In this document: piece after piece, positions 53,200 to 54,130 of the stretch
Layout: each line of letters begins with the position of its first letter
How positions within the stretch are numbered: the first letter of the stretch is position 1
From: a virus
DNA length: 64,000 nt
Virus record (IMG/VR): IMGVR_UViG_3300009320_000008
Span: 1-64,000 of that record
Strand: one strand, 5' to 3'
Notes under the pieces: model-generated
What the model was told of the DNA's origin: nothing
The model's database searches: none
The model's input: only the letters and a program-made list of their open reading frames with translations
Program-made: the position numbers and the translations under genes

Positions 53200-54130
53200 T
53201 TTGTTTGGGGTTAGTCTTGCTTCTGGTCGCACAACATATCAGGTTATACAGCCAGAAGCAAGACCAACATACTGTCTGGTCTCGCAAAATCCCACACCAC
53301 GTGGCTACTGTTATTAGGCATAACAGGTCATAGCCACATGATGTAAGACGGAGGTAAGTAAGAAATGAGTATCCTCGTCCTCGTGTTCTCGACTTGAAAA
53401 GCAGGTCTTGGCAGGGAGTCACACCCTGCTCGCTACGCCATCATGGTCGCACTTTATGGATTCGACTCGGCATTTCGAGTAAGAAGACGGATTATCGGGG
53501 CATCCTAATTTCTCTGCCAGAATGAGGGATTCTAACAGATTTGGCATACCCTTTCATAACTACTCATCCGATATCAACTCAGGTTTTCTCAGATCAAAAT
53601 TTCTCGGATTTTCGGCCAATCCACGCCAGACAGACTTTCACTGCCCGGTTGCGTGACATGCGGGGATTGGGGCAACCTGTCTTTCTGCACTCAGGGCGGG
53701 TGCTACAGGCCGCTGTTTTTCGGATTTTCTGCCATCTTGCACAGGCGTATCCTTGAACGCCTCAGATTGGGCTTACTTCCTAATGGGCTCCGTGGGCGGG
53801 CATACCTTCGCCACTAAGCATGATTCGTACCTCGCTATCGCTCTCCGCACATTTCACGAGGGCTTCCTCATTGAGACTATCTGACCTGCAAGAGTCAGCG
53901 CACTGTATCCCGCATCGACGCGGCTTATTGGGGCAGTAGAAGGATTGCAGCAGATGCCCCTCATCCTCGGCCTTATTAATACTACAGGCCACCTCACCAG
54001 GCTTTTCAGCCAGTGCAAAACCTGCTCTGTCGCATCCGCCACACAGGCCGAATGAAACAGCAAAGCCCCTACGCGAATCCTTGGGGCTGTCAGTTTGAGG
54101 TTTTGCTATCATGTCTTTCTTACTCCTTGA
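53200..54130 (-). ncRNA. Candidate large structured early leader RNA
   Basis: Dense GC-rich hairpins downstream of a consensus promoter; 5' end (GAGTAAGAAAGAC) is complementary to 53477-53488. Confidence 0.55.

What the first reader, a model, noticed from the sequence alone, without database searches (positions are those of the whole stretch)
53347..53371. Second antisense guide: 25-nt complement to a start site 11 kb away
Seen: 53347-53371 (GACGGAGGTAAGTAAGAAATGAGTA) is the reverse complement of 42269-42293 at 24 of 25 positions. The one difference is a G-U pair if both are minus-strand RNAs. The target spans the RBS and ATG at 42275. In the leader RNA the guide sits in a hairpin (AGGACGAGG / CCUCCGUCUU) with CAUUUCUUAC in the loop, and it also contains CUUACCUCC, so it could pair with the general early leader too. 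Inference: the first-made early RNA represses the distal gene at 41.7-42.3 kb, as an antitoxin-like or timing control. Alternatively, the two copies are DNA inverted repeats bracketing the early array.
Basis: partly seen in the sequence, partly recalled or inferred. Interest (0 to 1): 0.85.

Follow-up and report, generated by a model that had tools for sequence, protein, structure and literature searches.

The report
Anti-ribosome-site segment in phage leader RNA
A 25-29 base inverted repeat in an uncultured marine phage is real: one copy is the mirror image of a ribosome-binding/start site and sits in a conserved, folded, non-coding early leader RNA, where it most likely clamps the ribosome site of the next gene, and it may also pair with one distant start site.

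Summary
53347-53371 is the reverse complement of 42269-42293 at 24/25, and the match extends to 27/29. It is the only long-range inverted repeat in the 80-kb genome.

The 53.3-kb arm lies on the minus strand in an ORF-free leader RNA behind a near-consensus sigma70-type promoter. This leader is 95% identical to the one close relative, against 70-82% in the flanks. It has 6 compensatory pair changes and no broken pair.

As RNA the arm is an anti-SD plus anti-start module. Its CUUACCUCC is predicted (P about 1.0) to pair in cis with the SD of the first early cassette gene. That SD is the only fully sequestered one of 19. A distant relative (L029/G006) has the same layout, including the odd CUUACUUACC, but no full-length distal target.

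So the cis clamp looks like the conserved job. The full match to the 42275 start site looks specific to this lineage. Pairing there is thermodynamically feasible (about -18 kcal/mol net) but untested, because no relative's target DNA could be reached.

Verdict: a new variant of known phage RNA control, of moderate interest.

The parts
53347..53375 (-). Guide arm. As minus-strand RNA it reads as an anti-start part (CAUUUCUUAC), then UUAC, then an anti-SD part (CUUACCUCC), then GUC.
   Evidence: It is 100% identical in the relative L004. Its last 3 nt belong to covariation-supported helix 22.
42265..42293 (-). Target arm: a translation initiation region (GGGGGUAAGUAAGAA-AUG) with its ATG at 42275-42273.
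   Evidence: It gives the best duplex with the guide in the whole genome, -45.9 kcal/mol. Its own SD is partly closed by a local CCCCCG/CGGGGG hairpin.
54136..54165 (-). Early sigma70-type promoter (TTGACT, 18 nt, TG-TATAAT).
   Evidence: 11/12 match. The block is conserved in L004.
53189..54128 (-). Non-coding early leader RNA. The part 53288-53790 is highly conserved and structured.
   Evidence: 95% identity to L004 against 70-82% in the flanks. Fold z-score is -7.1 on the minus strand and -2.4 on the plus strand. Of 155 predicted pairs, 6 are compensatory and 0 broken. Single-base indels rule out coding. The 110-codon ORF 53780-54112 shows no codon-position bias. There is no Rfam match.
53289..53349 (-). 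Hairpin directly 3' of the guide (helices 22 and 23).
   Evidence: Two compensatory and one one-sided change between the window and L004.
53210..53268 (-). Second long hairpin, the standard cassette hairpin before the first early gene.
   Evidence: I4; MFE helices.
53191..53199 (-). SD (GGAGGUAAG) of the first early cassette gene; predicted cis partner of the guide's CUUACCUCC.
   Evidence: Pair probability 0.88-1.0. It is the only one of 19 such SDs with mean unpaired probability 0.00.
52814..53188 (-). First early cassette gene (124 aa, no known family).
   Evidence: It is absent or replaced in a metagenomic relative (joint 52722-53205).
42144..42275 (-). 43-codon ORF opened by the target ATG. 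It overlaps the next gene; the gene's frame is +1 relative to it.
   Evidence: and the reading.
41741..42241 (-). 166-aa gene behind the target (GTG start with AAAGGAG). Hypothetical viral protein.
   Evidence: Only one homologue was found, at 69% identity (P0002).
42367..42417 (-). Copy of a three-times repeated element with a weak terminator-like hairpin and T-run (42370-42397), just upstream of the target.
   Evidence: D13 and D10; alignment A4. It was not flagged by the terminator scan, so the terminator reading is inferred by eye.
41616..41669 (-). The only other anti-SD (CUUACCUCC) in the genome, in the loop of a 19-bp hairpin behind promoter 41730-41701.
   Evidence: Analogous elements in three relatives match each phage's own SD.

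Best explanation
The 53.3-kb arm is an anti-TIR module, meaning the complement of a Shine-Dalgarno sequence plus start codon. It is built into a conserved, structured, non-coding leader RNA that host RNA polymerase makes first from the promoter at 54.1 kb.

Its conserved role is most likely cis-acting. Its 3' half (CUUACCUCC, 53358-53350) pairs with the SD of the first early cassette gene (53199-53191), about 150 nt downstream. The helix closes over two long hairpins and holds that gene's ribosome site shut.

The full 25-29-nt match to the 42275 start site comes from one 29-nt module being present in both orientations. The relative's data suggest the start-site copy is the derived one, made in this lineage. 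As a result, the 42275 TIR is the only RNA in the genome that can form a long perfect duplex with the leader, so it may be blocked by the leader or may displace the cis helix.

Shown: the repeat, the RNA structure and its strand, and the conservation. Predicted by folding: the cis helix. Inferred: any regulatory effect, the direction of copying, and the timing.
For: The repeat is real and unique.

The leader is non-coding, 95% conserved against 70-82% in the flanks, and folds much better on the minus strand. It has 6 compensatory and 4 one-sided changes and no broken pair.

The ensemble pairs the guide's CUUACCUCC with the next gene's SD at P=0.88-1.0. Of 19 SDs of this type, that one alone is fully sequestered.

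A distant relative (L029/G006, terminase 55% identical, leader not alignable) has the same plan. It has a sigma70-like promoter and an ORF-free leader of about 650 nt. It also has CAUAUCUUACUUACCUACC about 110 nt before its first cassette TIR, predicted at P 0.9-0.98 to pair with that SD across two hairpins. Its anti-start half (CAUAU) matches its own commonest TIR (AUAUG), where this phage has CAUUU for AAAUG.

G006 has no full-length target: its best duplexes are -22 to -25 kcal/mol, all with ordinary TIRs.

In this genome the distal duplex is 20 kcal/mol better than any other and remains favourable after opening costs.
Against: There are no RNA data, so the promoter, transcript extent and processing are inferred. 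The cis helix is a thermodynamic prediction with no covariation: the guide is invariant in the one close relative, whose contig ends before the SD. When the SD is left out, alifold pairs the guide with two other leader segments (helices 1 and 12, never varying), so the guide could be a structural strand. The SD 9-mer is identical in both phages that carry the leader element, so the comparative support concerns architecture rather than compensatory change. Two other relatives (G001, G004) show no leader anti-SD. The G006 record is only 26% complete.
Confidence: 0.45

Rival explanations
1. Dedicated antisense control of the distal gene. The leader segment pairs, in trans or across 11 kb of a read-through transcript, with the SD and AUG at 42275. 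This blocks the 43-codon ORF and the overlapping 166-aa gene, or creates an RNase III substrate, and so delays that gene while early RNA is abundant. It can coexist with the cis clamp.
For: Complementarity is 24/25 (27/29) with sharp borders. The duplex is -45.9 kcal/mol against -25.7 for the next best target, and about -18 kcal/mol net after opening both sites. Both arms share a TAAG duplication found nowhere else in the genome. The target is the first start site after the early array and its terminator-like element. The 5' half of the guide is only loosely paired in the ensemble. This phage group plausibly uses anti-TIR RNAs, as shown by the sibling elements in four phages.
Against: The relative G006 keeps the leader element, with the same UUAC duplication, but has no matching start site in the 17 kb downstream. 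The 166-aa gene is absent from five full-length relatives. The 3' half of the guide is predicted to be occupied in cis, and the target SD sits in its own hairpin. There are no RNA data, and co-conservation of the two arms could not be examined. Each arm could be conserved for its own reasons.
Confidence: 0.27
2. No regulatory pairing at all. The segment is simply a strand of the leader RNA's own architecture, for example its long-range closing helices. The 42275 start site is a by-product of illegitimate recombination among the shuffling early cassettes, which copied 29 nt in inverted orientation.
For: Alifold pairs the guide with 53772-53781 and 53557-53565 inside the leader. The early array is mosaic in metagenomic relatives, with joints at cassette borders. 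The copied ATG is out of frame with the 166-aa gene, which has its own SD and GTG. Each arm has its own reason to stay conserved.
Against: Those internal helices never vary, and helices of that size are expected by chance in 600 nt (my estimate). The perfect 9-nt anti-SD placed 150 nt before a perfect SD recurs in a distant relative whose leader is otherwise unalignable. The anti-start half tracks each phage's own TIR variant.
Confidence: 0.2
3. The two arms are DNA crossover sites for inversion or excision of the 11-kb early array.
For: The arms bracket the array exactly, and the array has higher G+C (0.44-0.51 against about 0.40).
Against: The 93%-complete genome has no match to the resolvase/invertase or tyrosine recombinase families, while the control genomes do match. 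Inversion would put all early genes antisense to their promoter. The guide arm lies in an RNA with strand-specific G-U pairs and compensatory changes. The relative G006 has the guide but no second arm.
Confidence: 0.03
4. The plus strand carries a real mini-gene: a perfect SD and ATG at 53365 opening a 10-codon ORF.
For: On the plus strand, GGAGG followed by an ATG opens a 10-codon hydrophobic ORF that is identical in L004.
Against: The conserved structure is on the minus strand: about 20 G-U pairs would be A-C on the plus strand, and fold z is -2.4 against -7.1. Conservation runs evenly past the stop codon. The equivalent plus-strand ORF in L029 is 7 codons long and unrelated in sequence. No convincing plus-strand promoter lies nearby.
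Confidence: 0.03

Closest known systems
SD sequestration by an upstream anti-SD in a 5' leader (as in RNA thermometers, riboswitch expression platforms and hairpin-masked RBSs of T4-type phage genes such as mobE, cited in PMC3014915)
   Same: A pyrimidine-rich CCUCC-containing segment upstream in the same transcript pairs with the SD of the next gene. Pairing is predicted to be essentially complete.
   Different: The partners are about 150 nt apart and enclose two long hairpins. The anti-SD belongs to a 0.6-0.9 kb conserved structured leader. No ligand, temperature or alternative-promoter trigger is evident. The element also carries an anti-start half and a 4-nt duplication.
Phage P1/P7 c4 antisense RNA acting on icd/ant in the same immI operon (Citron and Schuster 1990, as summarised in PMC8198154)
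   Same: The antisense element is encoded upstream in the same transcription unit as a non-overlapping downstream target. The complementarity covers a ribosome-binding region.
   Different: c4 is a processed RNA of about 77 nt whose target lies within a few hundred nt. Here the candidate target is 11 kb away, behind a terminator-like element, the RNA is a large leader, and no processing is known. There is no sequence or Rfam relation. The c4 size and processing details are from my own knowledge.
P22 sar and lambda OOP antisense RNAs (from my own knowledge)
   Same: These are phage RNAs that pair with the initiation region or the 3' end of one mRNA. The long perfect duplexes are RNase III substrates.
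   Different: They are true cis-antisense transcripts from the opposite DNA strand of the target. Here both RNAs come from the same strand at separate loci.
T4 RegB endoribonuclease, which inactivates early mRNAs by cutting their GGAG SDs (PMC3014915)
   Same: The shared SD of a phage's early genes is used as a common handle for post-transcriptional control of the early class.
   Different: RegB is a protein nuclease. Here the candidate effector is RNA complementarity.

Membership tests
cis-acting SD-sequestering leader | Anti-SD complementary to the SD of the downstream gene | tested here: met
   CUUACCUCC (53358-53350) is the exact complement of GGAGGUAAG (53199-53191).
cis-acting SD-sequestering leader | The helix dominates the folding ensemble of the leader | tested here: met
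   Pair probabilities are 0.88-1.0. It is the only one of 19 SDs with mean unpaired probability 0.00. This is a prediction only.
cis-acting SD-sequestering leader | Both segments lie on one transcript | not testable with these tools
   The promoter is at 54165-54136 and no terminator is predicted in between. No RNA run holds the stretch.
cis-acting SD-sequestering leader | Conserved in relatives, ideally with compensatory change | tested here: inconclusive
   The same architecture is predicted in L029/G006. However, the SD 9-mer is the same there, and the close relative L004 ends before the SD.
trans or long-range antisense RNA of the P1 c4 type | Extended complementarity covering the target's SD and start codon | tested here: met
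   24/25 and 27/29. The duplex is -45.2 to -45.9 kcal/mol.
trans or long-range antisense RNA of the P1 c4 type | Antisense segment exposed (in a loop or single-stranded) for nucleation | tested here: inconclusive
   The 5' half has unpaired probability 0.15-0.69, while the 3' half is paired at about 1.0. The proposed local hairpin is not better than shuffles.
trans or long-range antisense RNA of the P1 c4 type | Guide and target co-conserved or co-varying in relatives | not testable with these tools
   The guide is identical in L004. G006 has the guide but no full-length target.
trans or long-range antisense RNA of the P1 c4 type | Membership in a curated RNA family | tested here: not met
   No Rfam match at the gathering threshold or at E<=10 beyond noise.
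site-specific DNA inversion system (Gin/Hin/Cin type) | Inverted-repeat crossover sites flanking a segment | tested here: met
   29-nt arms flank 42294-53346.
site-specific DNA inversion system (Gin/Hin/Cin type) | A recombinase gene in the element or genome | tested here: not met
   PF00239 and PF00589 are absent from the 80-kb genome, while the control genomes are positive.
site-specific DNA inversion system (Gin/Hin/Cin type) | Both orientations present in sequence data | tested here: inconclusive
   No strand-changing joint is listed at the arms. The runs are low-depth contigs and the table was truncated.

The most novel reading that the evidence does not exclude
The two arms form a reciprocal RNA switch or timer. 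The leader's anti-TIR first locks the SD of the first early gene. Later the 42275 start site is transcribed, either at the far end of the 11-kb early unit or from a later promoter. Its perfect 25-29-nt match then strips the anti-TIR off the 9-bp cis helix. This turns the first early gene on and silences itself, or marks itself for RNase III. It would work within a phage family that also aims separate small anti-TIR RNAs at its standardised early ribosome sites.
Probability: 0.1. Interest if true: 0.75.

Novelty: new variant of a known kind. Interest (0 to 1): 0.5.

Why it matters
[quoted passage not shown] This lineage has no hit in the phage reference collection, even for its terminase.

The group writes its early genes as standard cassettes: a hairpin, a C/A leader, and an identical ribosome site. 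It also carries RNA segments that are exact mirror images of that site. One sits in the early leader, which is this finding. Another sits in a small promoter-driven hairpin RNA after the array, and that one changes in step with each phage's own ribosome site.

If these pairings work, they would be an RNA-only counterpart to T4's protein-based shut-off of early messages. They would also offer a compact, portable translational control module. The present pair gives a clean, testable case of two defined 9-nt and 25-nt helices competing for one strand.

Tried and rejected
**Searches for relatives**
- Searches of the phage reference collection found nothing. I tried megablast of 41-56 kb, blastn of the leader, and tblastn of the terminase.
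- Protein-seeded scans of viral contigs with the 166-aa, 110-aa and helicase proteins found no relatives.
- Only the terminase scan gave relatives. Only L004 is close enough to align at the DNA level.
- Arm-pattern scans of viral, metagenome and genome contigs returned only L004's own contig plus unrelated chance hits.
- Two other patterns found nothing: the paired GAAAAUCCGA motifs and the repeated terminator-like element.
- The metagenome scan seeded with the 166-aa alignment found nothing.
- The only homologue of the target protein is P0002 (69% identity, on a 4.6-kb JGI contig).

**Sequencing runs**
- No RNA holder is listed for the leader; three marine DNA runs hold it or relatives of it.
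- I laid those runs on 41.5-54.4 kb. The output showed mosaic early arrays in relatives. The truncated tables did not show the letters at either arm, and no inversion joint was listed.

**RNA and protein searches**
- A covariance model of a leader domain found only the window and L004 in about 1 Mb of relatives.
- Global alignment of the G000 and L029 leaders is not meaningful.
- Self-comparison of four full-length relatives found no analogous TIR-type long-range inverted repeat.
- The 166-aa protein is absent from five full-length relatives.
- G001 and G004 show no leader anti-SD for their first cassette.
- Pfam, PHROGs and Atlas gave no function for the target or for the first early gene.

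**Readings rejected**
- The minus-strand ORF 53192-53422 crosses the guide, but a 1-nt indel in L004 breaks it.
- The plus-strand 10-codon ORF (see rival explanations).
- The DNA inversion reading (see rival explanations).
- An 'antitoxin-like' role, for which there is no evidence of any toxin.

Full report
**Setting**

The window is the first 64 kb of an 80,338-bp linear IMG/VR virus record, estimated 93% complete. Genes run on the minus strand from about 1.8 to 54.1 kb, and on the plus strand from 56.9 kb onward (terminase, protease). The phage reference collection has no match for it, not even for the terminase protein. The only sequencing runs that hold it are marine metagenomes.

Between 42.6 and 53.2 kb lies an array of about 18 small minus-strand genes. 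Each is preceded by a hairpin, a C/A-rich leader, and a nearly identical initiation region, AAAGGAGGTAAGAAATG (families D1-D9).

**The observation**

The stretch 53347-53371 (+) and the reverse complement of 42269-42293 differ at one of 25 positions. The match extends to 27/29 (42265-42293 / 53347-53375). The second would be A-C, so the mismatches give no net evidence about strand.

The pair is the only long-range inverted match in the genome at E<=0.05 (E=0.001). The core GTAAGTAAG occurs exactly twice in 80 kb, once in each arm. Similarity ends abruptly at the 29-nt borders. It is therefore one discrete module present in both orientations, not chance.

Read 5'->3' on the strand where it looks like a start site, the module is the standard early initiation region with a TAAG duplication. 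At 42275 (minus strand) it opens a 43-codon ORF. That ORF overlaps, out of frame, a 166-aa gene with its own AAAGGAG-GTG start at 42241. At 53365 (plus strand) it opens only 10 codons.

**What the 53.3-kb arm sits in**

A near-consensus sigma70-type promoter lies on the minus strand at 54165-54136: TTGACT, 18 nt, TG-TATAAT, 11/12. It is followed by about 940 nt before the first cassette gene (ATG 53188).

The one close relative available is L004, a 9.4-kb IMG/VR contig with terminase 87% identical. It begins at window position 53288 and carries the guide arm.

Across 53288-53790 the two sequences are 95% identical, with four single-base indels. The neighbouring regions are 70-82% identical. 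The stretch 53339-53407, which includes the guide, is identical in both.

The minus strand folds far better than its shuffles (-212 kcal/mol, z -7.1). The plus strand does not (z -2.4).

Of 41 differing columns, 16 fall in predicted pairs, and all 16 keep the pair: six double compensatory changes and four one-sided G-U/G-C changes. Sliding the partners by 1-3 columns drops pairing to about 40% and compensatory changes to 0-1. About 20 G-U pairs fix the strand as minus.

The 110-codon ORF at 53780-54112 is open in both phages. However, its differences are spread 36/33/37 over the three codon positions, with 9 synonymous against 50 non-synonymous codon changes. It is probably part of the RNA rather than a gene.

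Rfam has no match. A covariance model of one domain finds only these two sequences in about 1 Mb of relatives.

The guide is thus a 26-nt linker between helix 16 and the covariation-supported hairpin 22. Its last three bases belong to that hairpin.

**What the arm can pair with**

As RNA the arm reads as an anti-start part (CAUUUCUUAC), then UUAC, then an anti-SD part (CUUACCUCC), then GUC.

*In cis.* In the MFE and in the ensemble of the leader, CUUACCUCC (53358-53350) pairs with GGAGGUAAG (53199-53191) at probability 0.88-1.0. That 9-mer is the SD of the first cassette gene. The helix closes a junction over the two hairpins 53349-53289 and 53268-53210. Among 19 start sites with this SD type, it is the only one with mean unpaired probability 0.00; the others range from 0.12 to 0.77. 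The 5' half of the arm is only loosely paired.

*In trans or at long range.* The 42275 start site gives a duplex of -45.9 kcal/mol, against -25.7 for the next best site; the ordinary early start sites cluster at -21 to -25. Opening the guide costs 14.5 kcal/mol and opening the target 12.6, which leaves about -18 kcal/mol net.

*Within the leader.* When the downstream SD is left out, alifold pairs the arm with two leader segments (helices 1 and 12). These never vary, and helices of that size are expected by chance in 600 nt (my estimate).

**The target's setting**

Just upstream of the target lies one of three copies of a 50-90-nt direct repeat (831-889, 22797-22876, 42367-42417). Each copy contains a GGCAU..AUGCC-type hairpin followed by a T-run on the minus strand. 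The 42.4-kb copy is the weakest, and the terminator scan did not flag it.

The target is therefore the first start site after the early array. It would be reached either by read-through or from an unrecognised later promoter; this is inferred.

The 166-aa protein has no family. It has one homologue at 69% identity and is absent from five full-length relatives. Nothing suggests a toxin.

**Comparative evidence from distant relatives**

Each of several relatives, with terminase 51-55% identical, has its own standardised early start site. G001 has AGGAGGTATGAGAAATG (12 copies), G004 has AAGGGAGGTAGCTATG (11 copies), and L029/G006 has AAAGGAGGTAAGATATG (9-12 copies).

L029/G006 repeats the plan seen here:
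- It has a sigma70-like promoter: TTGACA, 18 nt, TG-TATGCT.
- It has an ORF-free leader of about 650 nt that cannot be aligned with ours.
- About 110 nt before its first cassette start, it has CAUAUCUUACUUACCUACC.

This shares the unusual CUUACUUACC with our guide. Its anti-start half (CAUAU) fits that phage's commonest start region (AUAUG), just as ours (CAUUU) fits AAAUG. It is predicted at P 0.9-0.98 to pair with the SD of the first cassette gene across two hairpins.

However, G006 has no second copy of GTAAGTAAG. It also has no outlier target in the 17 kb downstream: its best duplexes are -22 to -25 kcal/mol, all with ordinary start sites.

The leader anti-TIR and its 4-nt duplication therefore look ancestral and tied to the first cassette. 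The perfectly matching start site at 42275 looks like an addition in this lineage. The simplest origin is an inverted copy of the leader module, whose complement is by construction a usable ribosome site. This would also explain why its ATG is out of frame with the gene behind it. The direction of copying is inferred.

G001 and G004 show no leader anti-SD.

**A related element noticed on the way**

CUUACCUCC occurs on minus-strand RNA only twice in the genome: in this guide and at 41643-41635. The second copy sits in the loop of a 19-bp hairpin directly behind a promoter-like site at 41730-41701.

Three relatives have the same arrangement after or late in their early arrays:
- G001: TTGACT-17-TAAGAT, then a hairpin with CUCAUACCUCCUA in the loop, then a strong terminator.
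- G004: TTGACT-17-TATAAT, then a long stem displaying single-stranded UACCUCCCUU.
- G006: a long stem displaying CUUCUUACCUCCGU.

In each phage the exposed sequence is the complement of that phage's own early SD variant. This covariation across whole systems supports the sibling finding (e1-6074103). It also raises the prior that anti-TIR segments in these phages are functional.

**DNA-level reading**

The genome has no serine or tyrosine recombinase, while the control genomes are positive. Inversion between the arms would place the whole early array antisense to its promoter. The guide arm is under RNA-type constraint, and G006 has one arm only. I rate this reading at about 3%.

**Verdict**

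The segment is a genuine anti-ribosome-site element in a real early leader RNA, and the distal pairing is physically plausible.

The conserved, best-supported role is a cis clamp on the first early gene's SD (confidence about 0.45). Dedicated control of the 42275 gene is a lineage-specific possibility (about 0.27), and the two roles may coexist.

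Noticed in passing
window 41616-41669 (promoter 41701-41730); L100:9628-9800; L111:12560-12700 (minus); L126:9915-10100 (minus): Four phages of this group each have a promoter-driven short structured RNA after or late in the early array. Each displays, unpaired, the complement of that phage's own standard early SD: CUUACCUCC, CUCAUACCUCCUA, UACCUCCCUU and CUUCUUACCUCCGU. This is system-level covariation for an anti-ribosome-site small RNA.
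   Followed up: partly
window 53780-54112 (minus): The 110-codon ORF behind the early promoter is open in both this phage and L004. It shows no codon-position bias (36/33/37) and 9 synonymous against 50 non-synonymous codon changes, so it is probably part of the non-coding leader.
   Followed up: yes
window 831-889, 22797-22876, 42367-42417: Three copies of a 50-90-nt direct repeat are spaced about 20 kb apart on the minus strand. Each has a GGCAU..AUGCC hairpin plus T-run, which looks like a terminator and may divide the minus-strand genes into units.
   Followed up: partly
window 42144-42275 and 41741-42241: The 43-codon ORF from the strong start site overlaps the 166-aa gene, whose frame is +1 relative to it, just after an A-rich run. 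It could be a true upstream ORF, a frameshift site or a homopolymer sequencing error.
   Followed up: no
window 42.6-53.2 kb, in runs X2/X3: Metagenomic relatives have mosaic early arrays with joints at cassette borders. For example, 52722 joins 53205 with a different start site in place of gene 52814-53188, and 53213 joins 46130. This suggests the standard cassettes are recombination points.
   Followed up: no
window 54170-55100: About 900 nt are ORF-free, G-poor and C-rich on the plus strand (GC skew -0.21), with many ATCCC-like motifs, upstream of the early promoter. Identity to L004 is only about 70%.
   Followed up: no
window 55100-55320 and 56040-56400: There are arrays of TTTGGCA(C/T)A repeats and of CTACA/TGTAG quasi-palindromes around the isolated 169-aa minus-strand gene (55420-55929). 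This looks like a regulatory or origin-like region between the divergent early and structural units.
   Followed up: no
window 45911-46026: A 15-nt tandem repeat (about 7 copies, AAGATCAGCTCCCCG-like) lies inside the 122-aa early gene 45716-46084.
   Followed up: no
window 57438-59384: The large terminase has 134 relatives in IMG/VR, mostly 49-57% identical. It has no tblastn hit at 1e-5 among 50,697 deposited phage genomes, which points to an uncultured marine lineage.
   Followed up: partly
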